This document shows, one piece after another, positions 1 to 33,345 of a stretch of 64,000 bases of DNA (its first letter is position 1; each line of letters starts with the position of its first letter). The stretch is taken from assembly GCF_006345805.1 (NCBI RefSeq), contig NC_043025.1:3038001-3102000 (forward strand). The letters are read 5' to 3'. The DNA is from Octopus sinensis (Eukaryota). The position numbers were made by a program, and so were the translations under genes. The notes below the pieces were generated by a model. That model saw only the letters and a program-made list of their open reading frames with translations. It was not told the origin of the DNA and ran no database searches.

Positions 1-3000
1 ACAGCCAATGCGAGAGCCTCCGAGACTGCTGAACAACGGGCACTCCGCAATACACAGAACGCGGCTGCTACTGCCAATGCGAGAGCCTCCGAGACTGCTG
101 AACAACGGGCACTCCGCAATACACAGAACGCTGCTGCTACTGCCAATGAGAATGACTGCTGAACAACGATAACTCCGCAATACACAGAACGCTGCTGCTA
201 CTGCCAATGCGAGATCCTCCGAGACTGCTGAACAACGGGCACTCCGCAATACACAGAACGCTGCTGCTACTGCCAATGCGAGAGCCTCCGAGACTGCTGA
301 ACAACGGGCACTCCGCAATACACAGAACGCGGCTGCTAAGCCAATGCGAGAGCCTCCGAGACTGCTGAACAACGGGCACTCCGCAATACACAGAACGCTG
401 CTGCTACTGCCAATGCGAGAGCCTCCGAGACTGCTGAACAACGGGCACTCCTCGATACACAGAACGCGGCTGCTACTGCCAATGCGAGAGCCTCCGAGAC
501 TGTTGAACAACGGGCACTCCGCAATACACAGAACGCGGCTGCTACTGCCAATGCGAGAGCCTCCGAGACTGCTGAACAACGGGCACTCCTCGATACACAG
601 AACGCGGCTGCTACTGCCAATGCGAGAGCCTCCGAGACTGCTGAACAACGGGCACTCCGCAATACACAGAACGCTGCTGCTACTGCCAATGCGAGAGCCT
701 CCAAGACTGCTGAACAACGGGCACTCCTCGATACACAGAACGCGGCTGCTACTGCCAATGCGAGAGCATCCTAGACTGCTGAACAACGGGCACTCCGCAA
801 TACAGAGAACGCGGCTGCTACTGCCAATGCGAGAGCCTCCTAGACTGCTGAACAACGGGCACTCCTCGATACACAGAACGCGGATGCTACTGCCAATGCG
901 AGAGCCTCCGAGACTGCTGAACAACGGGCTCTCCGCAATACACAGAACGCTGCTGCTACTGCCAATGCGAGAGCCTCCGAGACTGCTGAACAACGGGCAC
1001 TCCGCAATACACAGAACGCTGCTGCTACTGCCAATGCGAGAGCCTCCGAGACTGCTGAACAACGGGCACTCCTTGATACACAAAACGCGGCTGCTACTGT
1101 CAATGCGAGAGCCTCCGAGACTGCTGAACAACGGGCACTCCTCGATACACAGAACGCTGCTGCTACTGCCAATGCGAGAGCCTCCGAGACTGCTGAACAA
1201 CGAGCACTCCGCAATACACAGAACGCTGCTGCTACTGCCAATGCAAGATCCTCCGAGACTGCTGAACAACGGGCACTCCGCAATACACAGAACGCTGCTG
1301 CTACTGCCAATGCGAGAGCCTCCGAGACTGCTGAACACCGGTAACTCCGCAATACACAGAACGCGGCTGCTACTGCCAATGCGAGAGCCTCCGAGACTGC
1401 TGAACAACGGTAACTCCGCAATACACAGAACGCTGCTGCTACTGCCAATGCGAGAGCCTCCGAGACTGCTGAACAACGGGCACTCCGCAATACAGAGAAC
1501 GCTGCTGCTACTGCCAATGCTAGAGACTGCTGAACAACGGTAACTCCGCAATACACAAAACGCTGCTGCTACTGCCAATGCGAGATCCTCCGAGGCTGCT
1601 GAACAACGGGCACTACGCAATACACAGAACGCTGATGCTACTGCCAATGCGAGATCCTCCGAGACTGCTGAACAACGGGCACTCCGCAATACACAGAACG
1701 CGGCTGCTACTGCCAATGCGAGAGCCTCCTAGACTGCTGAACAACGGGCACTCCTCAATACACAGAACACTGCTGCTACTGCCAATGCGAGAGCCTCCGA
1801 GACTGCTGAACAACGGGCACTCCGCAATACACAGAACGCTGCTGCTACTGCCAATGCGAGAGCCTCCGAGACTGTTAAACAACGGGCACTCCTCAATACA
1901 CAGAACGCGGCTGCTACTGCCAATGCGAGAGCCTCCGAAACTGCTGAACAACGGGCACTCCTCGATACACAGAACGCGGCTGCTACTGCCAATGCGAGAG
2001 CCTCCGAGACTGCTGAACAACGGGCACTCCGCAATACACAGAACGCGGCTGCTACTGCCAATGCGAGGTTCTCCGAGACTGCTGAACAACGGGCACTCCG
2101 CAATACACAGAACGCTGCTGCTACTGCCAATGCGAGATCCTCCGAGACTGCTGAACAACGGGCACTTCGCAATACACAAAACGCTGCTGCTACTGCCAAA
2201 GCAAGAGTCTCCGAGACTGCTGAACAACGGGCACTCCGCAATACACAAAACGCTGCTGCTAGTGCCAAAGCAAGAGCCTCCGAGACTGCTGAACAACGGG
2301 CACTCCGCAATACACAAAACGCTGCTGCTACTGCCAATGCGAGAGCCTCCGAGACTGCTGAACAACGGGAACTCCGCAATACACAAAACGCTGCTGCTAC
2401 TGCCAAAGCAAGAGTCTCCGAGACTGCTGAATAACGGGCACTCCGCAATACACAGAACGTTGCTGCTACTGCAAATACGAGATCCTCCGAGACTGCTGAA
2501 CAACGGGCACTCCGCAATACACAGAACGCTGCTGCTACTGCCAATGCGAGATCCTCCGAGACTGCAGAACAACGGGCACTCCGCAATACACAGAACGCTG
2601 CCGCTAATGCCAATGCGAGAGTCTCCGAGACTGCTGAACAACGGGCACTCCGCAATATACAGAACGCTGCTGCTACTGTTAATGCGAGGGCCTCCGAGAC
2701 TGCTGAACAACGGGCACTCCGCAATACACAAAACGCTGCTGCTATTGCCAATGCGAGAGCCTCCGAGACTGCTAAACAACGGGCACTCCTCAATACACAG
2801 AACGCGGCTGCTACTGCCAATGCGAGAGCCTCCGAGACTACTGAACAACGGGCACTCCGCAATACACAGAACGCTGCTGCTACTGCCAATGCGAGAGCCT
2901 CCGAGACTGCTAAACAACAGGCACTCCTCAATACACAGAACGCGGCTGCTACTGCCAATGCGAGAGCCTCCGAGACTGCTGAACAACGGGCACTCCGCAA

Positions 3001-6000
3001 TACACAGAACGCTGCTGCTACTGCCAATGCGAGAGCCTCCGAGACTGTCGAGCAACGGGCACTCCGCAATATACAGAACGCTGCTGCTAGTGTTAATGCG
3101 AGAGCCTCCGAGACTGCTGAACAACGGGCTCTCCGCAATACACAGAACGCTGCTGCTACTGCCAATGCAAGATCCTCCGAGACTGCTGAACAACGGGCAC
3201 TCCGCAATACACAGAACGCTGCTGCTACTGCCAATGCGAGAGCCTCCGAAACTGCTGAACAACGGTAACTCCGCAATACACAGAACGCGGCTGCTCCTGC
3301 CAATGCGAGAGCCTCCGAGACTGCTGAACAACGGTAACTCCGCAATACACAGAACGCTGCTGCTACTGCCAATGCGAGAGCCTCCGAGACTGCTGAACAA
3401 CGGGCACTCCGCAATACACAGAACGCTGCTGCTACTGCCAATGCGAGAGACTGCTGAACAACGGTAACTCCGCAATACACAAAACGCTGCTGCTACTGCC
3501 AATGCGAGATCCTCCGAGACTGCTGAACAACGGGCACTACGCAATACACAGAACGCTGATGCTACAGCCAATGCGAGAGCCTCCGAGACTGCTGAACAAC
3601 GGGCACTCCGCAATACACAGAACGCGGCTGCTACTGCCAATGCGAGAGCCTCCTAGACTGCTGAACAACGGGCACTCCTCAATACACAGAACACTGCTGC
3701 TACTGCCAATGCGAGAGCCTCCGAGACTGCTGAACAACGGGCACTCCGCAATACACAGAACGCTGCTGCTACTGCCAATGCGAGAGCCTCCGAGACTGTT
3801 AAACAACGGGCACTCCTCAATACACAGAACGCGGCTGCTACTGCCAATGCGAGAGCCTCCGAGACTGCTGAACAACGGGCACTCCTCGATACACAGAACG
3901 CGGCTGCTACTGCCAATGCGAGAGCCTCCGAGACTGCTGAACAACGGGCACTCCGCAATACACAGAACGCGGCTGCTACTGCCAATGCGAGGTTCTCCGA
4001 GACTGCTGAACAACGGGCACTCCGCAATACACAGAACGCTGCTGCTACTGCCAATGCGAGATCCTCCGAGACTGCTGAACAACGGGCACTTCGCAATACA
4101 CAAAACGCTGCTGCTACTGCCAAAGCAAGAGTCTCCGAGACTGCTGAACAACGGGCACTCCGCAATACACAAAACGCTGCTGCTAGTGCCAAAGCAAGAG
4201 CCTCCGAGACTGCTGAACAACGGGCACTCCGCAATACACAAAACGCTGCTGCTACTGCCAATGCGAGAGCCTCCGAGACTGCTGAACAACGGGAACTCCG
4301 CAATACACAAAACGCTGCTGCTACTGCCAAAGCAAGAGTCTCCGAGACTGCTGAATAACGGGCACTCCGCAATACACAGAACGTTGCTGCTACTGCAAAT
4401 ACGAGATCCTCCGAGACTGCTGAACAACGGGCACTCCGCAATACACAGAACTCTGCTGCTACTGCCAATGCGAGAGCCTCCGAGACTGCTAAACAACGGG
4501 CACTCCTCAATACACAGAACGCGGCTGCTACTGCCAATGCGAGAGCCTCCGAGACTGCTGAACAACGGGCACTCCGCAATACACAGAACGCTGCTGCTAC
4601 TGCCAATGCGAGAGCCTCCGAGACTGTCGAACAACGGGCACTCCGCAATATACAGAACGCTGCTGCTAGTGTTAATGCGAGAGCCTCCGAGACTGCTGAA
4701 CAACGGGCACTCCGCAATACACAGAACGCGGCTGCTACTGCCAATGCGAGACCCTCCGAGACTGCTAAATAACGGGCACTCCGCAATACACAGAACGCTG
4801 CTGTTACTGTCAAAGCAACAGCCTCCGAGACTGCTGAACAACGGGAACTCCGCAATACACAGAACGCTGCTGCTACTGCCAATGCGAGAGACTGCTGAAC
4901 AACGGTAACTCCGCAATACACAAAACGCTGCTGCTACTGCCAATGCGAGGTTCTCCGAGACTGCTGAACAACGGGCTCTCCGCAATACACAGAACGCTGC
5001 TGCTACTGCCAATGCGAGAGCCTCCGAGACTGCTGAACAACGGGCACTCCTCGATACACAGAACGCTGCTGCTAGTGCCAAAGCAAGAGCCTCCGAGACT
5101 GCTGAACAACGGGCACTCCGCAATACACAGAACGCTGCTGCTACTGCCAATGCGAGAGCCTCCGAGACTGCTGAACAACGGGTTCTCCGCAATACACAGA
5201 ACGCGGCTGCTACTGCCAATGCGAGATCCTCCGAGACTGCTGAACAACGGGCACTCCTCGATACACAGAACGCGGCTGCTACTGCCAATGCGAGAGCCTC
5301 CGAGACTGCTGAACAACGGGCACTCCGCAATACACAGAACGCGGCTGCTACTGCCAATGCGAGGTTCTCCGAGACTGCTGAACAACGGGCACTCCGCAAT
5401 ACACAGAACGCTGCTGCTACTGCCAATGCGAGATCCTCCGAGACTGCTGAACAACGGGCACTTCGCAATACACAAAACGCTGCTGCTACTGCCAAAGCAG
5501 AGTCTCCGAGACTGCTGAACAACGGGCACTCCGCAATACACAAAACGCTGCTGCTAGTGCCAAAGCAAGAGCCTCCGAGACTGCTGAACAACGGGCACTC
5601 CGCAATACACAAAACGCTGCTGCTACTGCCAATGCGAGAGCCTCCGAGACTGCTGAACAACGGGAACTCCGCAATACACAAAACGCTGCTGCTACTGCCA
5701 AAGCAAGAGTCTCCGAGACTGCTGAATAACGGGCACTCCGCAATACACAGAACGTTGCTGCTACTGCAAATACGAGATCCTCCGAGACTGCTGAACAACG
5801 GGCACTCCGCAATACACAGAACGCTGCTGCTACTGCCAATGCGAGATCCTCCGAGACTGCAGAACAACGGGCACTCCGCAATACACAGAACGCTGCCGCT
5901 AATGCCAATGCGAGAGTCCTCCGAGACTGCTGAACAACGGGCACTCCGCAATATACACAGAACGCTGCTGCTACTGTTAATGCGAGGCCTCCGAGACTGC

Positions 6001-9000
6001 TGAACAACGGGCACTCCGCAATACACAAAACGCTGCTGCTATTGCCAATGCGAGAGCCTCCGAGACTGCTAAACAACGGGCACTCCTCAATACACAGAAC
6101 GCGGCTGCTACTGCCAATGCGAGAGCCTCCGAGACTACTGAACAACGGGCACTCCGCAATACACAGAACGCTGCTGCTACTGCCAATGCGAGAGCCTCCG
6201 AGACTGCTAAACAACAGGCACTCCTCAATACACAGAACGCGGCTGCTACTGCCAATGCGAGAGCCTCCGAGACTGCTGAACAACGGGCACTCCGCAATAC
6301 ACAGAACGCTGCTGCTACTGCCAATGCGAGAGCCTCCGAGACTGTCGAGCAACGGGCACTCCGCAATATACAGAACGCTGCTGCTAGTGTTAATGCGAGA
6401 GCCTCCGAGACTGCTGAACAACGGGCTCTCCGCAATACACAGAACGCTGCTGCTACTGCCAATGCAAGATCCTCCGAGACTGCTGAACAACGGGCACTCC
6501 GCAATACACAGAACGCTGCTGCTACTGCCAATGCGAGAGCCTCCGAAACTGCTGAACAACGGTAACTCCGCAATACACAGAACGCGGCTGCTCCTGCCAA
6601 TGCGAGAGCCTCCGAGACTGCTGAACAACGGTAACTCCGCAATACACAGAACGCTGCTGCTACTGCCAATGCGAGAGCCTCCGAGACTGCTGAACAACGG
6701 GCACTCCGCAATACACAGAACGCTGCTGCTACTGCCAATGCGAGAGACTGCTGAACAACGGTAACTCCGCAATACACAAAACGCTGCTGCTACTGCCAAT
6801 GCGAGATCCTCCGAGACTGCTGAACAACGGGCACTACGCAATACACAGAACGCTGATGCTACAGCCAATGCGAGAGCCTCCGAGACTGCTGAACAACGGG
6901 CACTCCGCAATACACAGAACGCGGCTGCTACTGCCAATGCGAGAGCCTCCTAGACTGCTGAACAACGGGCACTCCTCAATACACAGAACACTGCTGCTAC
7001 TGCCAATGCGAGAGCCTCCGAGACTGCTGAACAACGGGCACTCCGCAATACACAGAACGCTGCTGCTACTGCCAATGCGAGAGCCTCCGAGACTGTTAAA
7101 CAACGGGCACTCCTCAATACACAGAACGCGGCTGCTACTGCCAATGCGAGAGCCTCCGAGACTGCTGAACAACGGGCACTCCTCGATACACAGAACGCGG
7201 CTGCTACTGCCAATGCGAGAGCCTCCGAGACTGCTGAACAACGGGCACTCCGCAATACACAGAACGCGGCTGCTACTGCCAATGCGAGGTTCTCCGAGAC
7301 TGCTGAACAACGGGCACTCCGCAATACACAGAACGCTGCTGCTACTGCCAATGCGAGATCCTCCGAGACTGCTGAACAACGGGCACTTCGCAATACACAA
7401 AACGCTGCTGCTACTGCCAAAGCAAGAGTCTCCGAGACTGCTGAACAACGGGCACTCCGCAATACACAAAACGCTGCTGCTAGTGCCAAAGCAAGAGCCT
7501 CCGAGACTGCTGAACAACGGGCACTCCGCAATACACAAAACGCTGCTGCTACTGCCAATGCGAGAGCCTCCGAGACTGCTGAACAACGGGAACTCCGCAA
7601 TACACAAAACGCTGCTGCTACTGCCAAAGCAAGAGTCTCCGAGACTGCTGAATAACGGGCACTCCGCAATACACAGAACGTTGCTGCTACTGCAAATACG
7701 AGATCCTCCGAGACTGCTGAACAACGGGCACTCCGCAATACACAGAACTCTGCTGCTACTGCCAATGCGAGAGCCTCCGAGACTGCTAAACAACGGGCAC
7801 TCCTCAATACACAGAACGCGGCTGCTACTGCCAATGCGAGAGCCTCCGAGACTGCTGAACAACGGGCACTCCGCAATACACAGAACGCTGCTGCTACTGC
7901 CAATGCGAGAGCCTCCGAGACTGTCGAACAACGGGCACTCCGCAATATACAGAACGCTGCTGCTAGTGTTAATGCGAGAGCCTCCGAGACTGCTGAACAA
8001 CGGGCACTCCGCAATACACAGAACGCGGCTGCTACTGCCAATGCGAGACCCTCCGAGACTGCTAAATAACGGGCACTCCGCAATACACAGAACGCTGCTG
8101 CTACTGTCAAAGCAACAGCCTCCGAGACTGCTGAACAACGGGAACTCCGCAATACACAGAACGCTGCTGCTACTGCCAATGCGAGAGACTGCTGAACAAC
8201 GGTAACTCCGCAATACACAAAACGCTGCTGCTACTGCCAATGCGAGGTTCTCCGAGACTGCTGAACAACGGGCTCTCCGCAATACACAGAACGCTGCTGC
8301 TACTGCCAATGCGAGAGCCTCCGAGACTGCTGAACAACGGGCACTCCTCGATACACAGAACGCTGCTGCTAGTGCCAAAGCAAGAGCCTCCGAGACTGCT
8401 GAACAACGGGCACTCCGCAATACACAGAACGCTGCTGCTACTGCCAATGCGAGAGCCTCCGAGACTGCTGAACAACGGGTTCTCCGCAATACACAGAACG
8501 CGGCTGCTACTGCCAATGCGAGATCCTCCGAGACTGCTGAACAACGGGCACTCCTCGATACACAGAACGCGGCTGCTACTGCCAATGCGAGAGCCTCCGA
8601 GACTGCTGAACAACGGGCACTCCGCAATACACAGAACGCTGCTGCTACTGCCAATGCGAGGTTCTCCGAGACTGCTGAACAACGGGCACTCCGCAATACA
8701 CAGAACGCTGCTGCTACTGCCAATGCGAGATCCTCCGAGACTGCTGAACAACGGGCACTTCGCAATACACAAAACGCTGCTGCTACTGCCAAAGCAAGAG
8801 TCTCCGAGACTGCTGAACAACGGGCACTCCGCAATACACAAAACGCTGCTGCTAGTGCCAAAGCAAGAGCCTCCGAGACTGCTGAACAACGGGCACTCCG
8901 CAATACACAAAACGCTGCTGCTACTGCCAATGCGAGAGCCTCCGAGACTGCTGAACAACGGGAACTCCGCAATACACAAAACGCTGCTGCTACTGCCAAA

Positions 9001-10816
9001 GCAAGAGTCTCCGAGACTGCTGAATAACGGGCACTCCGCAATACACAGAACGTTGCTGCTACTGCAAATACGAGATCCTCCGAGACTGCTGAACAACGGG
9101 CACTCCGCAATACACAGAACGCTGCTGCTACTGCCAATGCGAGAGCCTCCGAGACTGCTAAACAACGGGCACTCCTCAATACACTGTTACTGTCAAAGCA
9201 ACAGCCTCCGAGACTGCTGAACAACGGGAACTCCGCAATACACAGAACGCTGCTGCTACTGCCAATGCGAGAGACTGCTGAACAACGGGCACTCCGCAAT
9301 ACACAAAACGCTGCTGCTACTGCCAATGCGAGGTTCCGAGACTGCTGAACAACGGGCTCTCCGCAATACACAGAACGCTGCTGCTACTGCCAATGCGAGA
9401 GCCTCCGAGACTGCTGAACAACGGGCACTCCTCGATACACAGAACGCTGCTGCTAGTGCCAAAGCAAGAGCCTCCGAGACTGCTGAAGAACGGGCACTCC
9501 GCAATACACAGAACGCTGCTGCTACTGCCAATGCGAGAGCCTCCGAGACTGCTGAACAACGGGCACTCCGCAATACACAGAACGCTGCTGCTACTGCCAA
9601 AGCAAGAGTCTCCGAGACTGCTGAACAACGGGCACTCCTCGATACACAGAACGCTGCTGCTAGTGCCAAAGCAAGAGCCTCCGAGACTGCTGAACAACGG
9701 GCACTCCGCAATACACAGAACGCTGCTGCTACTGCCAATGCGAGAGCCTCCGAGACTGCTGAACAACGGGCACTCCGCAATACACAGAACGCGGCTGCTA
9801 CTGCCAATGCGAGATCCTCCGAGACTGCTGAACAACGGGCACTCCGCAATACACAGAACGCTGCTGCTACTGCCAATGCGAGAGCCTCCGAGACTGCTGA
9901 ACAACGTGCACTCCTCGATACACAGAACGCGGCTGCTACTGCCAATGCGAGAGCCTCCGAGACTGCTGAACAACGGGCACTCCGCAATACACAGAATGCT
10001 GCTGCTACTGCCAATGCGAGGTTCTCCGAGACTGCTGAACAACGGGTACTCCGCAATACACAGAACGCTGCTGCTACTGCCAATGCGAGATCCTCCGAGA
10101 CTGCTGAACAACGGGCACTCCGCAATACACAAAACTCTGCTGCTACTGCCAAAGCAAGAGTCTCCGAGACTGCTGAACAACGGGCACTCCGCAATACACA
10201 AAACGCTGCTGCTACTGCCAATGCGAGAGCCTCTGAGACTGCTGAACAACGGGCACTCCGCAATACACAGAACGCTGCTGCTACTGCCAATGCGAGAGCC
10301 TCCGAGACTGCTGAACAACGGGCACTCCGCAATACACAAAACGCTGCTGCTACTGCCAAAGCAAGAGCCTCCGAGACTGCTGAACAACGGGCACTCCGCA
10401 ATACACAGAACGCTGCTGCTACTGCCAATGCGAGAGCCTCCGAGACTGCTGAACAACGGGCACTCCGCAATACACAGAACGCTGCTGCTACTGCCAATGC
10501 GAGAGCCTCCGAGACTGCTGAACAACGGGCACTCCACAATACACAAAACGCTGCTGCTAGTGCCAAAGCAAGAGCCTCCTAGACTGCTGAACAACGGGCA
10601 CTCCTCGATACACAGAACGCGGCTGCTACTGCCAATGCGAGAGCCTCCGAGACTGCTGAACAATGGGCACTCCGCAATACACAGAACGCGGCTGCTACTG
10701 CCAATGCGAGAGCCTCCGAGACTGCTGAACAACGGGCACTCCGCAATACACAGAACGCTGCCGCTACTGCCAATGCGAGAGTCTCCGAGACTGCCGAACA
10801 CCGGGCACTCCGCAAT
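1..10816 (+). repeat. 69-bp tandem satellite array (~157 units, open at window start) derived from a 23-aa STPR-like coding repeat
   Basis: Consensus GCCAATGCGAGAGCCTCCGAGACTGCTGAACAACGGGCACTCCGCAATACACAGAACGCTGCTGCTACT repeated head to tail. Occasional ~62-bp units lacking part of GCCTCCG occur near 1518, 3442, 4882, 6739, 8179 and 9264. ORFs 3502..4908 and 6799..8205 translate identically (period 3297 bp). Confidence 0.98.
9326..10582 (+). pseudogene. Stop-free stretch of ~18 STPR-like 23-aa repeats (N-terminal repeat region of a Helitron RepHel protein)
   Basis: Translates as (ETAEQRALRNTQNAAATANARAS)n with the E1-T2-x-E4-x-R6-x-x-R9 pattern of STPR repeats. It is in the same frame as the downstream helicase. 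Confidence 0.7.
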
Positions 10817-10819
10817 TAA

Positions 10820-11908
10820 AAAACTTGCAGCATTGGCAAAAATTCAGAGGAAGCTGAAGTTCTTAGACAGTGCCGTCTCATTGTATGGAATGAATGCACA
10901 ATGGCCAATAAGGGTGCCCTTGAAGCACTGGACCGGTCACTGAAAGATATAAGGAATTCTACAGCTTTTATGCTTTCAGGAGATTTCCGGCAAACCCTTC
11001 TTGTCATCCCTAAAGGGAGCAGGGCTGATGAAGTGCGCGCATGCCTTAAGTCATTCACGTTGTGGCCCCAGGTTAAGACGTTAAGCCTAAGCACAAACAT
11101 GCGTGTGCACTTGCTTGGTGATAGCACGTCTGCGGCATTTGCTGAAAACATTTTAACCCTTGGGGAAGGCAAGGTCCCTAGGAATGATAGGGGTGACATA
11201 TCCATCTCTGAACTGTGCAACACCGTGGACATCCCTTCCGATCTTTTGGAAACAGTGGTCCCCAATCTGGAAAGTAATTATGCAGACATCAATTGGCTCA
11301 GTAAAAGAACCATCCTGGCCCCTAAAAAGGTAACTTTCAGTGCTATCAACGACCAGCTCCTAAGTCGAATTCCGGGTGAAGAGCGCATCTACAAATCGAT
11401 TGACCGGACCTTTGACCCCCAAGACATTGTCAATTACCCTATCGAGTTCCTCAACTCATTGGAGCCAGCAAGTCTTCCACCTTACATTCTTAGGCTAATG
11501 GTTGGATGCCCAATTATGCTAATCAGAAACTTGCTTCCGCCTAAACAGTGCAATGGGACCCGCTTAATAGTCAAGCCCCTGACTCCCCACTTGATTGAGG
11601 CCACCATTGTTACAGGGTGTGGGAGGGGTGAACATATTTTCATTTCATGGATGCACCTTTATCCCTAGGGATCAGACATGCCGTTTAACTCCCGCAGATC
11701 GCAGTTCCCAGGGAGACCATGCTTTGCCATGTCCATCAACAAATCTCAAGGCCTATCACTATCGGTGACAGGCATCCATTTGGGCGATCCATGTTTTTCA
11801 CATGGGCAACTTTATGTGGCCTGCTCCCGTGTGGGGAGTAGAAACGCTCTTTTTGTGTATGCTCCTCAGGGCAGAACACGCAATGTTGTCTATAGCGAAG
11901 TTTTATAG
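10820..11908 (+). pseudogene. PIF1-family (Helitron) helicase, C-terminal part, decayed
   Basis: Motifs seen: TCSIGKNSEEAEVLRQCRLIVWNECTM (Walker B DE changed to NE), LSGDFRQTL, LSTNMR, ILAPK, GCPIMLIRNL, CNGTRL, FAMSINKSQG, FSHGQLYVACSRV, TRNVVYSEVL. One in-frame TAG at 11666-11668. Walker A and the Rep/HUH domain are absent. Confidence 0.93.
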
Positions 11909-13402
11909 ACAAGTCGTCATTACAGCCGATGTGGTTATAAACAGGTGATCCGGAAGCATTGGTCGGATATATTCTCAGAACATGGACTCTTCCGCTTTTT
12001 TATTGGACAATACTGACGTCCACAACAATGCTCACCTGGCCGATATCAGTGCTTGTCTAAGTTGCTCATAGAGTTAGGCTAGAAGGGACAAGCCCTTTAT
12101 TTTTGGGTTAAGGCTGTTGCTAAGCTTTCCTAAGTTACTCCAATCCAGATCTCCAATGCAAACTTTTTCCTATGCAGATCTTTAATGCAACGTTATCCAA
12201 TCCACATCTTTTAGTCACCCATCTTCACTGTAGATCTCCAATGCAAACCTTCAATGCATCCTTATCCAATGTAAACCTTCGATTCAACCTTCTCGAATGC
12301 AGATTTCCAAGGTACCCTTCACCAATGCATATCTTCGATGCAGCCTTAACTGATAGTAACCCTAGAAGGGGTTAGGTCTAGATTAGGATTAGTCACTGCC
12401 TTGCCGTAGGGGTTCCTACCTCATGGGCCAAGGAGGTTAGATGATATGGTTGGTGTCTTCAAAAGGGCTGGCATGTGCAGCCTGATCACCTCTGCCGGTT
12501 AAACTCCCAACCCATGCGTTCCCGTCGTGACACTTATTCTACAGAACTGGGTTGGGTGTGAAAACCAACTTTAAAGTATAAATATACATTTTTTTGAATC
12601 AGCAATGTTGTTCTCGGTTAAGTCCTATTTGGGGCGAAAAATCAATAAACTGATAAACCAATTCCTTATAGGATTTCCCACTAAAATTGGCTACACCCCA
12701 TTTTCAACTATAACTTATGCCAATTTTGACATATTTTGTTCAAAATTGATGCCAACATTACCTAGGACTCATGGGATCTTTGAATGCTTTAAGTTCTCAA
12801 AAAAAAAATACAGTCGATGAGTGGAAATAATCAATAAACCAATTCCTTATAGGATCTCCTAATTAATTTGCCTGCAACCCATTTTCAACGAAACGTTCAC
12901 CAATTTCAACGGATTTCGCTCAAATTTGATGTCGGTGCAACTTATTTTGGTTTGAAATAAAGCGCTCGATCACTTAATAATCCTAACGTAATCCCGGGCA
13001 ACGCCGGGCTATACTGCTTGTATCAAATAAACCTGAACATCAAAAACACTGACCTACATACACAAACACACATACATACAGAGATAAACACAACTCTACA
13101 CATTCACACGCAGTAACCATACTTAGTGGATCTTCTATAAAATTAATGAACCGTAAATTTTGTGTACTGTAAAAATGTGTTGCCCCTAAACCCAGTTGGG
13201 CTGCTAAACCCGATGGGTCCCCACAAGCAACTGTATTGTAACGAATGATTTCTTTTTTATGCATCTCGGTTTTAGAAGCGTTCATACAAATTCTTCATGA
13301 AATATGCTTTGATGATTTCATTTTACTAAATTTTTTATCCAAAACGAGAGCAAAGAATGAAGATAGATTTCCATGAAAATAATGTTCCTTCACATTACTT
13401 CA

Positions 13403-13739: not shown

Positions 13740-15900
13740 GAGCAACAAGAATGGATCCGGTAATTTAGCACAATTGTTTCATACTATAAAAATTTATTAA
13801 AGCTGCAAATATTACAGCAAATATAATATGTCAAGTAATCTTCAGCTAATTTCGTATAGGTTTTCCAATAATGTAAAGGTCTCAAATCAATTAGTAACAT
13901 CCTAGAGAGTGTAAGTATACCGATAAAGTTGTAGATATGAGTTTCAGGAACTTGAAGTAGGATACCAGGCAAACCAAGATTAAGTTCATATATGTTTTCC
14001 AACAATGTAAAGTTCTCAAATCAATTAGTAACATCCCAGAGAAGGTAAATATACCGATAAAGTTGTGGATATGAATTTCAGGAAACATGAAGAAGGATGC
14101 CAGTCAGAGCAAGATTAAGTTCACATCTAACTGTTGCAAGAAAAAAATTCCTTTAGTTATAAGAATGGTAGTAGGGGAGGTTGAGGAAGCAGATTAGCTG
14201 GAGAAAAGAACAGAAGGGGAAAAAATTGGGTGATGTAAAAGGATAAAGACAGTCTATTTCTATGGTGACAGAAAATTTAGGTCAGTGTGGGAGGAACATT
14301 AAATTCTTAAGAGACTGTGAGGTTGACCAAACCTTGCTTTCAAATGAAAGCCATCAGAATTTATAGTAGGAGTTAGGAGAAAGGGAGGTATAAGGAAAGC
14401 TACTAGAGGGTCTTAGGTTATCGGCAGAGAAAGATACAGTAAGAAAAATCAAGTTAACACTAGAATAGAAGGCTATTTATTTTTATTTTTTATTTTATTT
14501 TAACTTTTATTTTTTTATGGTGAGAAAGAATCTAGGTTACTATCTAAAGGTCAATTAAATTCTATAGCAAATGGTATGGGAACAGTACCTATTCAAATTT
14601 ATAGTGAAAATCAAATTATAACTGGAGGAATAGTATTACATGTTATTTAGAATAGAATTGGGAAAATGTGCAAATCTATGATTAAAGTAAGGTTAATTTA
14701 GTTGACTATAAAGTCAATTAAAAGTTGACATAGTATGTTTTCTATTTATTATTATATTAAAAAGATACAGTTAGAAAACAATAGGAACACCTTCAAATTT
14801 CTATTTCAAATATTTTAAAGTTCTGATTTTTGAATGAATGCAAGACCGACCTAACTCTAGACGATTATTTAGTAGATTTTTATTTTTTCTATACTTTATA
14901 ATCTCGTAGGTCTCCATAGAACAGAGTTTACAGCCTACTCAATTATTTCTGTAAGGTATTGCCCTTCTAACTATTTCTCATTTTAGGTTATATTTAATAT
15001 TATTAGTTTTGAGTTCCCAAATTTTGCTAGATAGTGTAGTGCAATCTGCCTTATGATCTAGTCGGAAAGAGGAAAGAGGATTGTTAATTCTCTGTTTAAA
15101 ATTAATAGAACAACCGATGTAAAAAAAGTTACTATTAGAAGTTATTATAGTACATTTATAGATTACATTTTGGACTGAACATCGACCAGATGCCGGACAA
15201 TTTGATCTAATCCTACAATTGCAACTGGGGGATAATTTTCAGGTTTGGAATTATTTAAGGACAGTTCTCTCACATTGCTGTTATTCAAATTATTATAAAT
15301 ATTATTTTCATTATTATAGGTAAAATTATGTTATCCAAAGTGGGGTTACTATTTATTGATCCATTCACACTATCTTTCACATCTAACATAACAATACCTC
15401 TATTACCTACATTATTGATATTGCTGTTATTATTATTTGTATTTATATCAAAGTTATTATTACTGCTATAGATATTATTGCTATCATCATTTTTGGTATT
15501 ATTTTTATTTATATCATCCCTATTTTTATCATTATAATTATTATTTCTATTAATATTATTGATATTATTATTATTGTTGTTGCTCACATTTTGATAATTA
15601 TTATTATTATTTTTTTTATTTTTGATACTATTATTACAATTATTATTACTATTCATGTTGATACTAATTTTACTAATCCTGGCTAACATAATGTTTCTAC
15701 TATTAAGTCTAGCTATTATGGTGGACATATTAGGGAGGGTTAAATATGAAATCCTAACTGTTCTCTTAGAAATTATTCTATATTTATGAGAGGTTGGAAA
15801 ATATTTTTCTAGTCTAGATTTGAATCTACTGTATATATTCGATATAAATCGCCCAGTTAAAAGGAATATTTAGCCAAATGATATTTTCTTTTTTAAATTT
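13740..15900 (-). mobile_element. Penelope-like element remnant: GIY-YIG endonuclease and 3' pseudo-LTR region
   Basis: Minus-strand translation at about 15235-14830: SCNCRIRSNCPASGRCSVQNVIYKC...FYIGCSINFKQRINNPLSSFR...TTLSSKIWELK...GCKLCSME...LLNNRLE, with TGA stops. An Asn-rich linker lies upstream and a hammerhead downstream. A ~134-bp tandem duplication sits at 13860-14130. Confidence 0.8.
13765..13849 (-). ncRNA. Degenerate minimal type I hammerhead ribozyme (PLE pseudo-LTR)
   Basis: Minus strand: TTAG-CTGAAGA-ttac...AATAAA...gtat-GAAAC-AATT-GTG-CTAA. The cleavage triplet is GUG, so probably inactive. Loop and flank resemble the 33062 copy. Confidence 0.65.
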
Positions 15901-15924
15901 TCTTAAATTAGATTTGGGGTGAGA

Positions 15925-18900
15925 TGTTTTAGTCTTCAGGTTCTACATTTTGCTGATTTCTATTTCAAAATCTTTATATTTGCTCAGTTTTTGGTAGGTC
16001 TTGACAGATATGTTTATATCGATTGGGACAGTCATATCAATGAGGAGACATGTTCTTTGTCTGAAGTCTTTCAATATGATATCTGACCTATTTGCATCTA
16101 TCTTTCTGTCAGTTTGAATGGTGAAGTTCCAGAGGAGTGAGATGTGGTCATTTTCAAGCATTGGAGGTGGTTTGTGTTCCCACCAGTTTTTATCATGGGG
16201 CAAGTCCAGGCTTCTGCAAATTACCAAGTGAATATATTGTGCAGCTCTATCATGCCTGTTGAGATACTCTGTAGGCGCAAGAAGACTGTACTTGGAGACA
16301 ACATGATCAATGGTCTCAGTTTGTTGTTGACATACACGACATGTTGGGCTACTGCCGTTCTTTAATATGTTGGCCTGGTAGTTCCTTGTAGGTAGGCATT
16401 GATCTTGAGCTGCGATGATGAACCCTTCTGTTTCAGATTTTAAGTCAGAGGTCTTAAGCCATTGATGGGTCAGGGCTTTGTCAACATCTGCTTTATTCGC
16501 TCTCTTTGGGTATTTGCCATAGAGAGGTTTTTCTTGACGTTTATCATTCAGAATATCTAAGGCCACAGTTTTAGCACGGGTTTTCATGTGCTTAGCTTTT
16601 TCTGTGCTTTTTCTTGTATGTCTAATTTCGAAATTTGTTGTATTCGGAATTCACTTAGATATTCCTTTGCCTGTTTTGTTACTGAGTATGATACTTGCTA
16701 GTTTTCATGTTTTGAGACAAGTTTTAACATCCAGTCCTCAGAGTTTTTCAGGTAGGTGTCTAGGCCATTTGTAGCAATCTTCATTGTTATTGCCAGTTGT
16801 AAAAGTCCACGGCCTCCCTCTTTTCTTGGCAGATAAAGTCGTCCTGTATCTGCCTTAGGGTGGTGCATTCTATGCATTGTCAACAGTTCTCGTATTTTTC
16901 TGTCAAGATTAAATATTTCAGTAATTGACCAGTTAACGATATTGAAACTGTAAGTCACGACTGGTATGGCTAAAGCTTTGATCGCTTAGATCCTGTTTCT
17001 CGCATTCCGCTCTGTCTTGAGTATTGCTCTTACTCTGCGATAACATTCTCTCCTGGTCCTTTCCTTCATCACTGAATGCCTTATTCCATCCCCTTCAATT
17101 ACCCCTAGATACTTGTAGCTCTCCGCTGGGTCTAATTCTTTTATGACATTCTGCTGGTCAAGCTTAACGTTAGATGTTTCTGTCACTTTTCCTTTGATAA
17201 AGGTGGCTTTTGCACATTTATCGTGGCCAAATTGCATTCTGATGTCATCACTGAATTGTTTAACAATCTCTAGTAAGCCCTTGAGTTGTTGGTCATTTTT
17301 GCAAAGAGCTTCAAATCATCCATGTAAATGAGTTGATTTATATTTTTATCAAACCTTTTATATCTGTACTGCGCATCATTGAGCAATTTTGAGAGAGGTA
17401 TCAAGGCTAAACAAAAGAGGAGTGGTGATAGTGAGTCACCCTGAAAAATGCCACATGAAATATTTACATCACCAGCATTTAGAGAATCATTGTCACTATT
17501 CAAATTTAATGTGGTTCTCCATGATCTCATACTTACAGACAAGAGGTTTCGCAGAGTAGGCGCAATTTTGTACATTTCTAGGCTCTCTTTATCCAGGTAG
17601 GCTATCAAAAGCCTTTTCATAGTCTATCCAGGCTATTGACAAGTTTTTGTGTCGTTTGTGACAATCTTCTAAGATCATCTTATTGATGAGTAGCTGATCT
17701 TTACAACCATAAGATCCACGTTTACATCCTTTCTGTTCATTAAGGAATATGCTGCTGTGTGTCAAAAAACTATAGGTATATTCCGTCAGGACAGATGTTA
17801 GCGTTTTAAACATACTTGTTAAGCAGGTTATGAGTCTATAGTTTTTTGGTTCATTTGTTTCTTCACTTTTTGGAAGCAGGAATGTTAATCCATTAACTAG
17901 CCAAGGAGGCATCCTACTAGGGTGTTGCCAAACATCACTGTAAAGTTCTGTTAGCAGTTCATGGCTCTCTTGGAAGGTATTCAACCAGAAGTTAGGAATT
18001 TTCTCCTGTCCTGGAGACTTCCATTTGCTTGACCTCCTGAGAGCAGATCTTATATCTTCTACCTTGACACCCTCCCACTTTTGCTCTTCTAAGGAGTCCA
18101 GTTCTGTAGATATTCTATCAATCCAGGGGTCCTTTTCGTTGTGTGTTTTTTCTACTGCCCAAATTTTATTCCAAAATCCCCGCACTTCTTCTTTTGATGG
18201 TGTTTTTCCTATCTTCCTGTAAAAATTTTTGGGGTTATTTTTTAACATGATGTTGTCCTTGAAGAATCTAACACGTTTTTCATACCTCGCTATGCGAGCA
18301 GCTTTAGCAGATACCTTTTGCTTGATGGTTTCTATGGTGGCATCAATATCAAGTATAGTTTTCATATTATATTTTTTCATTAATTTTGGGGTTTTTGTAG
18401 GTTTAGTAGTCCTGTCAACCTTAAGGTTTTTCAAATATTCAATATAAGATCTAAATAGTTTGATTTGTTGTTGGATACGCTCTTGCCAAGAAGACTTTTT
18501 GTGAGAATGTTGCCGTTTTCTAACCTTTTCACCACATAGGATCGTTGAGATTTTCGCGGATGCATAGAATATGTGGTTGAGATCTGTGATATCAACATCA
18601 TTAGCTGAAATTATATCCTTAAGTTCAAGCCGGATTTTACCAATTATTTTCATGTTTTGGTTAGAGTTTCGGATTTTAGGGAGTGTATCGCGTTCATCCA
18701 TACTGGTCTCTTTAATTTTCAGTCATTCAATCATGATTTGATTTTTTAGCTCATGTAGTTCTGTTGTGTCAATATTTGTATGACTTTCTTCATCTATTTT
18801 GATGTTCATCTGTCTTAGTGTTTATGATTGGTTCAGGGAGTATTTCACTTTGCCTATCACTTATACTAACTCTTTCAATCCTTACTTCGTTTCTATCAGC

Positions 18901-21428: not shown

Positions 21429-22017
21429 CTCATTAGGAAGGAGGGAAACTAATGCGCGAAATATCTGCGTCTATCTCAGTAAATATATGATGACAAAAAT
21501 ATAAGCACACCACCAAATTGCGTTTGCATCATAGCTATTACTCTCATTTCACGTCCTAAATAGCGCGTAGTGAACACGACGCTCTCTTTACTACTTTCTC
21601 CCTCCCATTCCTATTACTTTCTCTCAAGCCCCGTCAGTCATGGCAATGACTCTCACTACGTCACCTTCACACAATTACTAATTTCTATCCTGTCGCTTCA
21701 AATGCATACAAGGAGACATAAAAGGAAACCGAACGAAAGCAAACATGGAGGGCCGTTAGACCACAACGAGGGTAAAATATATATATGTACGTACATACAT
21801 ACACGCATACATACACAACTACATACATAAATACATGCATACGTACGTTTATGTGTGTGTATATCTGCAGGTACAGACTTGGACGTGTAGTAACAAGTTT
21901 AAAAAAAGACCATAGACTTAGATTCGATCCGTCTGTGCAGGACCTTCAGCAAGCGTCATCTATTAAACCCCAACGTCTTTGTGAGTGAATTTGGTAAAGA
22001 GAAACTGGAAGATTCCA

Positions 22018-22050
<33 letters not shown>

Positions 22051-22070
22051 AATGCCCCTCACTCTATCTA

Positions 22071-22137
<67 letters not shown>

Positions 22138-22429
22138 TATAGATGGTGTAATTTAATTTTTCATTATTGAATTGATAAAAGGTGGTTTTATATATATATA
22201 TATATATATATATACTGTCTTATATTCCTCCCCACCACTACAAACTCAATACCACTATAAAATGGTCAAAACTCTTCACACAGGAACTTATTTTGATTTG
22301 AAAACTCCACTAGAATGGGAGAAAGTGCTAATACATGATCTAAGTTATATGATATATAAAAAATGTAATATACAAATAAATATCTGGAAATATAAACCAT
22401 CCGATTTTCTGAGTACCTCATTTCTTCTA

Positions 22430-22492
<63 letters not shown>

Positions 22493-23199
22493 TGTGTGTA
22501 TGTGTGTGTGTGCGTGTGTGTATGTGTGTGTATGTGTGTGTGTATGTGTGTGTGTGTGTCTGCGTGTGTGTATATGTGTATGTGTGTGTGTGCGTGTGTG
22601 TATATGTGTATTATCGCACACTCTGATGCCTGGTGTAAGGTTGCATCGTGTTGATTCAATATTGAAGCAATGGCATGCAACCGTATTCTACATTCCACCA
22701 ATAACAGTAACTAATTCTGAAGTTATTATTACTGCATACTGGTGGTTCAATTTTCAACCACCAGGATGTAACTTGATGCTAATGCTTAGGACATCCGTGC
22801 AGTAGAAATGCGTGTCGTTCAAAGATTTAAAATGACTAAATTGTATAATATATATAATAATATGGTACAAAATAAGTTTCTGCATGTGTAATTTTTCGTT
22901 CTTATTTTAATGTCTTTTACACAGGATAAAACCCGAAATAGTGAACTCGGAATTTTGGAACTAAGTGGAAGACAATGATTGTTTACCATAAAGAGTTTCC
23001 CGTCTTGTCGTACCATTCGAAGTGGTTGACCAGAGCCTGGATTGTATTACAATGCTTGTAAGTTGCGTCCCATGATTTGATTTTCCTCTCCCTTTATATT
23101 ATGTATATGTGTGTGTGAATGTGTGTGTCTGTGTGTGTGTTTGTTTGTGTGAATATACGTATATGTAAATGAATATATATATATATATATCGACAGATA

Positions 23200-23278
23200 G
23201 AGAAACACTGATAGATAGAGAGATAGATAGATAGAGATACAGACAATGATTGATAGATAGCTAGACAGACAAACACAT

Positions 23279-23327
<49 letters not shown>

Positions 23328-23396
23328 GTATATAGGTAGATAGATAGAAAGATAGATAGATAGGTAGATAGATAGATAGAAAGATAGATAGATAGG

Positions 23397-23470
<74 letters not shown>
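23200..23470. repeat. (GATA)n microsatellite
   Basis: Visible directly. Abuts the 3' end of a Tx1-like element. Confidence 0.95.
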
Positions 23471-25575
23471 TTTTCTTTATTAGCTACACAGGGCTGCACA
23501 CAGACAACAAATTACAAGGTAGAGCTTTTCTTTTGGGGGTAAAATATAGGGGGTTGGTTTTCGATCAAAGGGGATCGTAAAAGGAAAGAAAGAGGATAAA
23601 AAAAGGGGAGGATTTTTAAAAAAAAGGGGGGGGAGAAGGAAAAAAAGAAAAGGGGAGAGGAAAAAAAGTTGATCAATAGAGATCGTAATCACAGAAATGT
23701 CAATATGAAGTGTAAAGGGAAGGACAGGTGAGGTTTACCCGTGGAAAGAAAAGCCTACGGAAAATACCACGGTAACCTCGGTCAATGAAGTCACATGTTA
23801 TATTTCTTTTTTTCTTTGTTTTTTTTTTGCAAATAAGCAACTCTCTGTATTAATTTTTACGGTTCATAGAATCATAGTCAAGGTGGCTTCGTCATTCATA
23901 TGTGCCAATTTTGCTACATTCACCCATCTTTTTTTAAAACATTCACTAGACAAAACTTGCATCTCTACTCTCACTTTCCTCTCCAAGTGATACTTGAAGA
24001 AGTTGATGAGAGATTGACCAGAGAGGAAAGTGTTTGTCTCTAATCCTTTCAGGCGCGTCCACCAGATACATTCTTTCGCCATAGCCACAAGTATGATAAA
24101 AATAGCTTTTCCTTCCCGTTTGAAGGAAGGAGGCGTGACGATATTAACGATAGACTCGGCTGATAAACCGACACGTCCCACACGTGACAGCAGTCGTTCG
24201 ACATAAGCCCACAGGTCGGAAATTGCTGGACACTGCACGATTGCGTGCAGAGCAGTTTCGTCGCTCTGCCCGCATCTCGGGCAGGTCGGCTCCGTGTTTC
24301 TCGAGCCATGCCTATAGAGCTTATCCCGAACGGGTAGCGCTTCTCAGTAGCACCGCCAGGCCAGGGATCTCTGGAAGTTGTCCATAGGTCCCGGGCCGAA
24401 AGTCGTTTGAAACAGGCGGGTTAGGTATTCCTCGTCGACGCCCAGGTTTGCCCCGAGATCGTCGTCGTACCTCCCCTCCACTAATCCCCTATAGAATGCT
24501 TTGGTTGTGTTGAAGTCACTGAAGGTCGACCCGGGACGGCAGAGTTGCTTGAGAGCAACGCGACACTCGCGGTGCCATTCGCCCTTCCTCGGTCTCTTTT
24601 TGATCCACGACTGTAGTTCGGTCATGGAGACGAGTTGCGGGAATGCGTGCCTCACAAACGGCGACCACACCTGTTCACCGTCGTCTACATAGAGCCGGAG
24701 ATGGTGCAGTCTCAGCGCGTGTCTGCGCATCATCAACCACGGCATGCCCAGCCCTCCTTTTAACGGGTGTTGACAGCAAATGGATCGCCTGACCATCGGG
24801 ACGCATCCTTTCCACAAGAAGCGGAAGAGAATGCGTTCTAGTTTGGTGATGGTAGGGTCGGGACAAGGTACGACGGTCAGGCGGTAGTAGATGATGGACG
24901 CGATGTACGTGTTCGCCACCTCCGCCCGACCATTTAGGGACAGTTTCCTCTCGGCCCATTGCTGGGCGAGAGTGACCACCCTACTCGTTATCTCGTTCCA
25001 GTTCTTCTCCATTTGGCAGTCCGGACCGAACCAGACCCCGAGCAACTCAACCGGGCGTCCCAACTGTCCAGCGTCCCACGACGGAGGTACTGGTGGACGG
25101 CATGGGCTTGCTTCTCCAGGTGCCGAGCCGCAAGCCCACTGACTTTTCCCGGTTGATTTTTGCTCCTGTCACCGCTTCGTAGTCTTTCAGTGTCTCGCCG
25201 ACCCACTCGATGTGCTCGTGGCTTGACACTATGACGGTGACGTCGTCCGCGTATGCAGACACGTTCGTCCCGCATCCCAATTCTCGCGGGATGCCCCTCA
25301 GAGTCGCCAGCTTCCGCAGTAGTGGCTCAAGAGTCAATACGTATAGAAGGGCCGAGAGGGGGCATCCCTGACGGACCGAACGTGCAATGTCCAAAGGTCT
25401 CGATAGATGTCCATTTACACGAATTACCGAACGGATGCCTCTGTACAAGGCAGCTATCCAGCCGCGGAAGACGGGACCGAAACCAGCCGCTCTCAGGACT
25501 GCCTCCAAGTATCGATGGTCTACCCTATCGAAGGCTTTCGATTGATCCAAGTTGATCAGGGCCCCACCAATGCCA
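23471..25575 (-). mobile_element. 5'-truncated Tx1-like (L1 group) LINE, copy A
   Basis: RT motifs LDQSKAFDRVDH, VRQGCPLS, AYADDVTV, LLGVWF, GGLGMP and a C-terminal CxxC..ET..H..C finger. The 3' end reads AATAAAGAAAA and runs directly into (TATC)n. Confidence 0.92.
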
Positions 25576-25897
<322 letters not shown>

Positions 25898-25898
25898 A

Positions 25899-32034: not shown

Positions 32035-32039
32035 TGGAT

Positions 32040-32090
32040 GGATAGCTAGCTAGATAGATAGATAGGTAGGTAGATAGATAGATAGGTAGG

Positions 32091-32185
<95 letters not shown>

Positions 32186-32195
32186 TTAGACAGAT
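32040..32195. repeat. (GATA)n microsatellite at the 5' flank of Tx1 copy B
   Basis: Visible directly in the sequence. Confidence 0.95.
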
Positions 32196-33061
32196 GAGCG
32201 ATTGATTAATCGATAGATTGATCATTTTTCTATTGTTACATCATTTAAAATTTCAGGAACACAAATCATACAGCCTCAATTCCCGCTCGCTGTCTTCGAT
32301 GAGATCCGTCAATTCTTATTTATGGCGTAGAATTTAAACCAGAGCTGAAAACAATCCCTTACGTTTGTCATCCATTGGGCTGCGCCTATGCTGGAGCACT
32401 GCCTTAAAGTGTTTTAGTCGAACAAATCGACCCCAGTACTTGTTGTTAAGCCTGATGCGTATTCTCGCTGTCCCTTACGCTGATTTGCCTACAGTTACGC
32501 AACTTTATACTTTTGATTTCTTTATTATTAATTACCAGAAAAAAGAAAAACATGAATGCAATTATCGTCAGCGGCAGGCAATTCTGCATCAGACGTAAAT
32601 GCTTTGAAAATGATGTGGCAAAAATTTGAAAAGTTTCAAGTGGTTGTAAGGAATTTAACAAGATTCCGATCGGCCAAATTACTGGGGCGTGAACAAACCA
32701 GAACCTGTTCCCAAGCGGTCATGGTGGACAAACTGAAACACGTACATAAACATATACATAGATATATACATATATGTATATATGTATATAATTAAGGATA
32801 AATGCATCGTCTGTGAGTATGAAATCTCTCCTCATATCTCCAGAAATCGAACTTACTTCAATATGGATGGATTTACATTTTCATTTTCTGGGAAACTAAG
32901 AGGTTTTTTAAAATACTTATTTTAAAACCTGTTATATGACTGTGCAACATTAAAGAACTTTGGAAGTCCGTTTGTTATCTAAATCTGATCTTTATAGAAC
33001 TATCCCTGATGTTTCAGGAGTGTAACCTCACCCCCTTAGATGTTTGGAGAACTCACATGTT

Positions 33062-33151
33062 TTTCGGCTGATGAGTACGGGTCACTTGTATTTGCTGCAA
33101 TATATGCAGCCTTAATAAAGCTGGTCTTCGTACGAAACAATTGTACCGAAA
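33062..33151 (+). ncRNA. Minimal type I hammerhead ribozyme with an intact core
   Basis: TTTCGG-CTGATGA-GTACG...(loop containing AATAAA)...CGTAC-GAAAC-AATT-GTA|CCGAAA. Stems I and II pair perfectly, stem III is the palindrome ACAATTGT, and the cleavage triplet is GUA. Confidence 0.88.

Positions 33152-33306: not shown

Positions 33307-33345
<39 letters not shown>

What the first reader, a model, noticed from the sequence alone, without database searches (positions are those of the whole stretch)
1..10816. Unit variants point to past selection on the STPR frame, not on the long ORFs the ORF finder reports
Seen: many recurrent variants are synonymous in the ETAEQ frame (GCT/GCG, CAG/CAA, GCA/GCT, GCG/GCA, CTC/CTT/CTA, GAG/GAA, AGA/AGG, GCT/GCC) but change amino acids in the MREPPRLLNNGH frame. 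Recurrent replacements fall at a few positions: RN/LD/LN at residues 9-10, T/S, N/K, and A/S/V/F before SET. Stops in the STPR frame (GAG>TAG, CGG-TAA, CAA>TAA) and 7-bp deletions recur across higher-order copies. The ~18 units at 9326-10580, close to the helicase, are stop-free. Inference: an ancestral set of protein-constrained repeat types, perhaps with specificity-determining residues, was later amplified without coding constraint.
Basis: partly seen in the sequence, partly recalled or inferred. Interest (0 to 1): 0.7.

Follow-up and report, generated by a model that had tools for sequence, protein, structure and literature searches.

The report
Satellite grown from Helitron STPR repeat
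This 69-base tandem repeat lies inside a broken Helitron transposon and matches one DNA-binding-type protein repeat of its gene, which was likely multiplied as non-coding satellite DNA; its common variants do not show more protein-preserving changes than chance, apart from a weak trace in alleles that are probably older.

Summary
The variants, stops and stop-free run are real, but the deletions are 8 bp, not 7. The STPR frame is ancestral: the array sits inside a 16.5-kb Rep-deleted Helitron, in the place where near-full-length kin carry only 2-3 such units before Rep and helicase. Related copies hold 11, about 184 (here) and at least 322 units, and a free array spans about 169 kb elsewhere. 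The selection claim is weak. Counting each variant once, 21 of 57 are synonymous (15.2 expected, p 0.016, uncorrected). Recurrent variants show no significant excess (15 of 43, p 0.11; 3 of 12 at 10 or more copies). The excess lies in alleles shared with a duplicate array (12 of 26, p 0.01); private alleles are neutral. Only three alleles trace to ancestral units. LD is absent from every other array read, and it removes Arg9, a backbone contact in FMBP-1, not a base reader. The stop-free run is within chance (p 0.12-0.19) and cut off by stops. Verdict: a Helitron-derived satellite born from a coding repeat. An earlier, unchecked note of this scan reports the same in another genome.

The parts
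1..10816 (+). 69-bp tandem array, 158 units, each reading as one 23-aa STPR repeat; the array begins 1,870 bases before the window (L013:8131), about 184 units in all
2489..9081 (+). Two near-identical copies of a 48-unit (3.3 kb) higher-order repeat, 2489-5783 and 5784-9081
   Evidence: lag 48, 2 mismatches and 5 gap columns
9338..10579 (+). 18 units without stop or frameshift; closed by TAG at 10580, and separated from the element's ATG by many upstream stops and frameshifts
10817..10825 (+). Deletion junction joining an STPR unit to the middle of the helicase at a 3-base AAC microhomology; TAA in the STPR frame. Zn-finger-like region, Rep and the first helicase part are missing
10820..11908 (+). 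Dead C-terminal Pif1 helicase remnant of RepHel (residues 1158-1516 of the intact 1,546-aa relative, 63% identity), internal stop at 11666-11668
11909..12992 (+). 3' non-coding part of the Helitron, with degenerate 28-bp repeats at 12134-12348
12993..13020 (+). Helitron 3' end: 5-bp-stem hairpin at 12993-13008 and terminus CTTG at 13017-13020 (CTAG in five other copies), followed by T

Best explanation
The array is a satellite-type repeat inside a dead, Rep-deleted Helitron, and its unit is likely one STPR repeat of the transposase's N-terminus that was multiplied after, or mostly after, the gene stopped being used. Shown: element anatomy (5' TC, broken N-terminal ORF, array, deletion junction, helicase remnant, 3' hairpin); 2-3 units in near-full-length kin; 11, about 184, at least 322 units and a 169-kb span in other places; stops, frameshifts and array-private variants. 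Inferred: the short coding repeat gave a substrate for slippage or unequal exchange; a deletion at AAC microhomology removed Rep; blocks were then duplicated (48-unit higher-order repeat) and new mutations, such as R9L, N10D and stops, were spread neutrally; units also left the element and grew into a free array. Past protein selection shaped the founder unit and perhaps a few old alleles (CAA at 12, AAA at 19, GCA at 20), not the bulk of the variants.
For: Pfam STPRs on the array and PIF1 plus Pif1_2B next to it. L018 and L019 run N-terminal STPR region, 2-3 units, Rep, helicase; an intact sister-family ORF has STPR-like repeats, Helitron_like_N and PIF1 in one frame (L059). In that family the repeat number varies inside open frames: 1 to 5 copies of one unit type. 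In this element TAA replaces TAT at codon 64, before the array. No junction form seen gives an open in-frame fusion: TAA here, out of frame in the duplicate and in a contig end of run X6. Array-private alleles are neutral: 8 of 30 and 14 of 57 synonymous against 8.0 and 14.1. Nine C18 blocks pooled: 70 synonymous against 80.5 expected, and three of nine have a stop in the consensus. Strong constraint is excluded for recurrent variants: P(15 or fewer of 43) is 8e-5 at omega 0.2 and 0.007 at 0.3. The commonest variant listed across four public runs is R6W (9, 25, 22 and 45% of summed contig depth), which removes a conserved arginine.
Against: A nominal synonymous excess remains: 21 of 57 (p 0.016), 19 of 54 without the three ancestral alleles (p 0.036), 23 of 61 in the union of both C29 arrays at 3 or more copies (p 0.003), 12 of 26 shared alleles (p 0.0095). 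Omega 0.5 is not excluded (P 0.22); the omega-like estimate is 0.62 with interval 0.35-1.12. Only 1 of the last 22 units is broken against 37 of the first 136 (boundary chosen after looking, not tested). Only two near-full-length copies of the own family were found, both decayed, so an active master with more units is not excluded. The order of deletion and expansion is inferred.
Confidence: 0.82

Rival explanations
1. The first expansion happened in frame in a live Helitron, or in a translated STPR-only remnant, so the oldest layer of unit variants was filtered by protein selection; neutral amplification came later.
For: Synonymous excess among alleles shared by the two C29 arrays (12 of 26, p 0.0095; non-CpG 9 of 21, p 0.035; shared against private Fisher p 0.039). 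4 of 6 synonymous differences to the L053 consensus against 2 of 16 for the C18 consensus lines (Fisher p 0.025, post hoc). In-frame repeat gains exist in the sister family (L062 open for 957 aa with 5+4 units).
Against: Overlap size equals chance (26 against 25.2), so many shared alleles may be repeat mutations; 5 of 15 when present twice in both (p 0.21). The 11-unit copy L053 shows no excess (10 of 36 against 9.3). N-terminal region omega 0.95-1.48 against three kin. A Q5 stop allele occurs in both arrays (7 and 7 units). All p-values are uncorrected and the partitions were chosen after the first test.
Confidence: 0.2
2. RN, LD and LN are ancestral specificity variants of a modular DNA reader, as the variable diresidues of TAL effectors are.
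For: Residues 9-10 carry two of the most frequent replacements (R9L 29 and N10D 17 gap-free units) and D occurs on an L background. STPRs read 4 bp per repeat (PMC4856987).
Against: LD: 25 of 143 units here, 0 of 175 in the duplicate, none among the listed commonest pairs in six C18 blocks, none in L053, L018 or L019; N10D not listed at 2% in any of four runs. Nesting RN > LN > LD fits two successive mutations. In FMBP-1 Arg9 bonds to phosphates and Glu1, Leu10 acts by its main chain, and base contacts come from 13, 14, 16, 17 and 21 (PMC4856987). Other arrays drift to CN, YN, HN and RI at the same place.
Confidence: 0.03
3. The 18 clean units next to the helicase are still part of a translated protein.
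For: 453-codon stop-to-stop frame at 9221-10582; 1 of the last 22 units broken.
Against: Run length within chance (p 0.19 and 0.12); TAG at 10580 and TAA at 10817 separate it from the helicase, which has its own stop; the helicase remnant's private changes are neutral (7 of 26 synonymous against 6.9).
Confidence: 0.03
4. Part of the array length and the 48-unit repeat, or the second C29 array, are assembly artefacts (false duplication or an uncollapsed haplotype).
For: The higher-order copies are 99.9% alike; the second array starts at an N gap and shares the 3' flank and the CTTG end.
Against: The two C29 arrays have different majority alleles, and their helicase and 3' parts are only 92-95% alike. 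The unit is present in all four runs laid, and contigs bridge the junction in two of them. This rival changes counts, not the origin.
Confidence: 0.15

Closest known systems
STPR domain (Pfam PF21107; Bombyx FMBP-1, PDB 5d23; PMC4856987, parts 2-4 of 5 of the text read)
   Same: 23-residue period, Glu1, Thr2, Arg6 and Arg9 in register.
   Different: Known domains have 3-7 repeats in a protein; here about 184 DNA copies, a quarter broken. Leu10, Met13, Tyr16 and Arg20 of FMBP-1 are not kept in register.
HLE1 Helitrons carrying STPRs (HELIANO, PMC11417382, two passages read; supplements not read)
   Same: STPRs reported as a domain stably carried almost only by HLE1 elements.
   Different: The passage places such domains in ORFs other than RepHel; in L059 the STPR-like repeats (24.1 bits, under the cut-off of 27) are in the RepHel frame. 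No satellite expansion in the passages read.
Helitron/Helentron-borne satellites: Drosophila DINE-1 central tandem repeats, oyster satellites (PMC9659126, PMC12628747, PMC8268682; passages read)
   Same: An internal repeat of a non-autonomous Helitron exists both inside the element and as a free long array.
   Different: There the unit is described as a central repeat of non-autonomous elements; here it is a codon-phased protein repeat of the transposase gene, with short-copy forms still in the genome.
Chenopodium CficCl-61-40 satellite from the CACTA tnp2 domain (PMC7320549, abstract and outline read)
   Same: A satellite monomer derived from transposase coding DNA, with the array attached to a deletion derivative.
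   Different: A 40-bp fragment of a non-repetitive domain there; a whole 23-aa repeat unit of a rolling-circle element here.

Membership tests
Helitron (HLE1) | 5' TC, inserted after A | tested here: met
   TC at L013:6517 after A; homology with L019 starts there
Helitron (HLE1) | 3' CTRR followed by T | tested here: inconclusive
   CTTG then T here and in the duplicate; CTAG then T at the same place in L003, L004, L007, L010, L011. Read as a mutated CTAG.
Helitron (HLE1) | Short hairpin just before the 3' end | tested here: met
   5-bp stem at 12993-13008, kept in five other copies; its energy alone is not beyond shuffles (z -0.96)
Helitron (HLE1), autonomous | Intact RepHel with Rep and Pif1 helicase | tested here: not met
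   Only residues 1158-1516 of 1,546 match by tblastn, with an internal stop: a non-autonomous deletion derivative. Kin L018, L019 and L059 have Rep.
STPR domain protein | 23-residue repeats with Glu1, Thr/Ser2, Arg9 | tested here: met
   Consensus unit and Pfam/PDB alignment; Arg9 lost in about a fifth of units
STPR domain protein | Encoded in an open, translatable frame | tested here: not met
   TAA at codon 64 before the array; 38 of 157 units with stop or frameshift
STPR domain protein | Binds the DNA major groove, 4 bp per repeat | not testable with these tools
   Shown for FMBP-1 only (PMC4856987)
Satellite DNA | Long head-to-tail arrays, also free of the element | tested here: met
   12.7 kb here, at least 22 kb in the duplicate, about 169 kb span on C18 (nine 10-kb blocks read, all array) with no Helitron match in them or in the neighbouring blocks read
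Satellite DNA | Array-specific homogenised variants and higher-order repeats | tested here: met
   Different consensus lines per array and sub-array; 48-unit repeat
Satellite DNA | Heterochromatic or centromeric location | not testable with these tools
   No chromatin or cytological data

The most novel reading that the evidence does not exclude
The STPR arrays at the N-terminus of these Helitron transposases are copy-number-variable DNA readers that expand in frame in live elements; one such expansion, still faintly marked by protein selection in its oldest alleles, seeded a satellite family now present under four organism labels. The genome would then hold the whole path from a selected protein repeat to a 169-kb satellite.
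Probability: 0.2. Interest if true: 0.65.

Novelty: new variant of a known kind. Interest (0 to 1): 0.4.

Why it matters
Satellite origins are rarely traceable. Here the unit keeps the codon phase of a transposase repeat, and copies with 2-3, 11, about 184, at least 322 units and a 169-kb span coexist in one genome, so synonymous and non-synonymous counts can date when coding constraint was lost. It also explains long false ORFs and STPR domain hits that gene finders could report. The more exciting reading, a code of specificity residues, does not hold.

Tried and rejected
A first split of the array cut 22 units at a false anchor; repeated. Twelve units with indels were left out of the variant counts (145 of 157 full plus the last partial unit used). 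The pool 'allele seen in two or more short-copy elements' gave 10 of 19 synonymous (p 0.014), but it includes the divergent first unit, whose alleles match by chance, so I did not use it as support. Nei-Gojobori omega of the helicase remnant is 0.61, close to the array's 0.62; the substitution-matched test shows private changes in 11 dead copies to be neutral (100 of 350 against 100.4), so raw values near 0.6 do not show selection. The antisense frame that shares the wobble position gives the same weak signal and is not independent. Summed contig depth of the unit is far above that of the helicase in the four runs but is no copy number. A protein search with the first 200 residues of L059 found 1 hit among 7,991 scored candidates, too few to map the spread of the fusion. 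Rfam found nothing in the window or L067. The second C29 array is not an independent insertion. Literature: STPR + Helitron gave 2 papers, both HELIANO; STPR + satellite gave 3 unrelated papers; some searches were seen as listings; passages of PMC12001565, PMC13085455 and PMC13404089 added nothing specific. No paper on an STPR-derived satellite turned up in these searches of the held library. No supplements were read; HELIANO's Table S11 may bear on whether STPRs lie in the RepHel frame. No structure prediction was run.
Full report
What is there. The window opens inside a tandem array of 69-bp units, 157.7 copies at 4-10816. Split in register it gives 158 units: 144 of 69 bp, seven of 61, two of 68, two of 70, one each of 59 and 67, and a last partial unit. 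The commonest unit reads ETAEQRALRNTQNAAATANARAS. It matches Pfam STPRs at E 1.9e-38 and aligns in register with the FMBP-1 structure 5d23. The MREPP-frame ORF has no STPR match and only hits without a passing stretch. The genome is a 2.7-Gb eukaryote assembly; earlier notes of the scan call it octopus-like, which I did not test.

The element. Upstream of the window the array runs another 1,870 bases, about 184 units in all. Before it lie a Helitron 5' end (TC after A, L013:6517) and an ORF from L013:7894 with weak STPR likeness that stops at codon 64, where kin have TAT. After it come a TAA, the C-terminal part of a Pif1 helicase with an internal stop, and a 3' hairpin with terminus CTTG, CTAG in five other copies. 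Against an intact 1,546-aa sister-family RepHel only residues 1158-1516 match, so Rep is deleted. The join uses an AAC shared by the unit and the helicase. It is out of frame in the duplicate locus and in a contig end of run X6; contigs two bases shorter occur in X1, X5 and X6; a gap-free contig in X5 and a gapped one in X1 bridge it. No form seen gives an open fusion.

The series. Two near-full-length, decayed members of the family (L018, L019) have 2 and 3 units of this type before the Rep region. A truncated copy has 11 units (L053). A second C29 array of at least 22 kb begins at an assembly gap and shares the 3' flank, so it is a duplicate or another haplotype, not a new insertion. On C18 the same unit spans 17,345,172 to about 17,514,320; nine 10-kb blocks were read, all array, with no Helitron parts in them or in the neighbouring blocks read. 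In the sister family the STPR-like repeats vary from 1 to 5 copies of one type, some inside open frames (11 copies examined, the N-terminal start found in 9). The unit was found in all four runs laid, under four organism labels, each with its own variant shares.

The selection test. I counted each distinct single-base variant once, in 145 gap-free units, against a null that keeps the substitution type. In the STPR frame 21 of 57 are synonymous, 15.2 expected (p 0.016; 0.058 under a uniform null). Four synonymous variants ride with a neighbouring replacement, and by codon state 18 of 59 are synonymous against a site share of 26.5%. Strong constraint is excluded and mild constraint is not: P is 8e-5 at omega 0.2, 0.007 at 0.3 and 0.22 at 0.5.

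Evidence for a trace of old selection. Alleles shared by the two C29 arrays are 12 of 26 synonymous against 6.9 (p 0.0095, CpG-aware), while private alleles are 8 of 30 and 14 of 57, as expected. The union of both arrays at 3 or more copies gives 23 of 61 against 15.4 (p 0.003). This consensus differs from that of L053 by 4 synonymous and 2 conservative changes, whereas the C18 consensus lines differ by 2 synonymous of 16. The limits: the overlap of 26 is what chance gives (25.2 +/- 2.7); with two copies required in both arrays the count is 5 of 15 (p 0.21); L053 shows no excess (10 of 36 against 9.3); these partitions were chosen after the first test and no p-value is corrected. Three alleles trace to ancestral units by my reading: CAA at residue 12, AAA at 19 and GCA at 20, the last two linked in both arrays (23 and 135 units). 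The C18 blocks show no excess (70 against 80.5) and three of nine have a stop in the consensus.

Residues 9-10. LD is in 25 and LN in 12 of 143 in-register units here; LD is in 0 of 175 units of the duplicate and is not among the listed pairs in C18, L053, L018 or L019. R9L makes up 0.1-5% of summed depth in the four runs and N10D is not listed at 2%. In FMBP-1 Arg6 and Arg9 bind phosphates, Arg9 also pairs with Glu1, Leu10 acts by its main chain, and base contacts come from residues 13, 14, 16, 17 and 21 (PMC4856987). R9L, and the family-wide R6W, are therefore more likely decay than a code (inference).

The clean run. Units 136-153 have no stop or frameshift. With 119 of 157 units clean, a run of 18 arises in 19% of shuffles, 12% with one higher-order copy removed. 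It is closed by TAG at 10580 and TAA at 10817. The low damage of the last 22 units (1 of 22 against 37 of 136) is noted and untested.

How it most likely works. Shown: anatomy, copy series, breaks, neutral private variants. Inferred: a short coding repeat in the transposase is prone to copy gain; a microhomology deletion removed Rep; unequal exchange or slippage then multiplied blocks, most recently a 48-unit block, spreading whatever mutations they carried; units that left the element grew into the C18 array and drifted to new consensus lines. Rolling-circle amplification, proposed for Helitron arrays in PMC12628747 (passages), is possible and not tested.

Against what is known. Helitron-borne satellites and satellites from transposase DNA are both in print (PMC9659126, PMC12628747, PMC8268682 passages; PMC7320549 abstract). 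STPRs in HLE1 Helitrons are in print (PMC11417382 passages). My searches of the held library found no paper on a satellite from an STPR repeat. An earlier, unchecked note of this scan describes the same kind of array in another genome; I had reached the reading before seeing it, and it is not independent support. Verdict: new variant of a known kind, interest 0.4.

Noticed in passing
G000:C18:17345172-17514320 (L047-L052, L067, L072, L073): A free array of the same unit over about 169 kb, with two sub-arrays of different consensus; the first has a stop in its majority unit. It ends directly on 3.7 copies of an unrelated 141-bp repeat.
   Followed up: partly
L058, L059, L061, L062, L081 (sister Helitron family): Young copies, one with an intact 1,546-aa RepHel ORF; an N-terminal 147-bp double repeat varies in number between copies, partly inside open frames.
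   Followed up: partly
G000:C29:2625335-2650300 (L044, L043, L027, L045): Second copy of the array-bearing element 400 kb upstream, sharing the 3' flank for several hundred bases; starts at an N gap; majority alleles differ (R6W in about half of the units).
   Followed up: partly
L016, L020, L022-L026, L028-L032: Many non-autonomous copies in which the element's 5' non-coding end lies about 1-1.5 kb before the helicase remnant, with no STPR units; 832 first-look candidates for the helicase.
   Followed up: no
window 15285-18722 and 24344-29588, minus strand: Broken non-LTR retrotransposon pieces: reverse transcriptase, zf-RVT and endonuclease matches.
   Followed up: no
window 45640-46255, 47005-47701, 47645-48342: Three copies of a 600-700-bp repeat in both orientations, each ending in a TTA/AAT run, also present near the duplicate locus.
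   Followed up: no
window 12134-12348 and 12650-12930: Degenerate 28-bp repeats and an internal duplication of about 100 bp, 180 bp apart, in the Helitron's 3' non-coding part.
   Followed up: no
window 21788-25897, 32037-35198, 60522-60805: Long GATA and TACA microsatellites; FMBP-1's STPR binds such 4-bp units best (PMC4856987). A link to Helitron STPRs is untested speculation.
   Followed up: no
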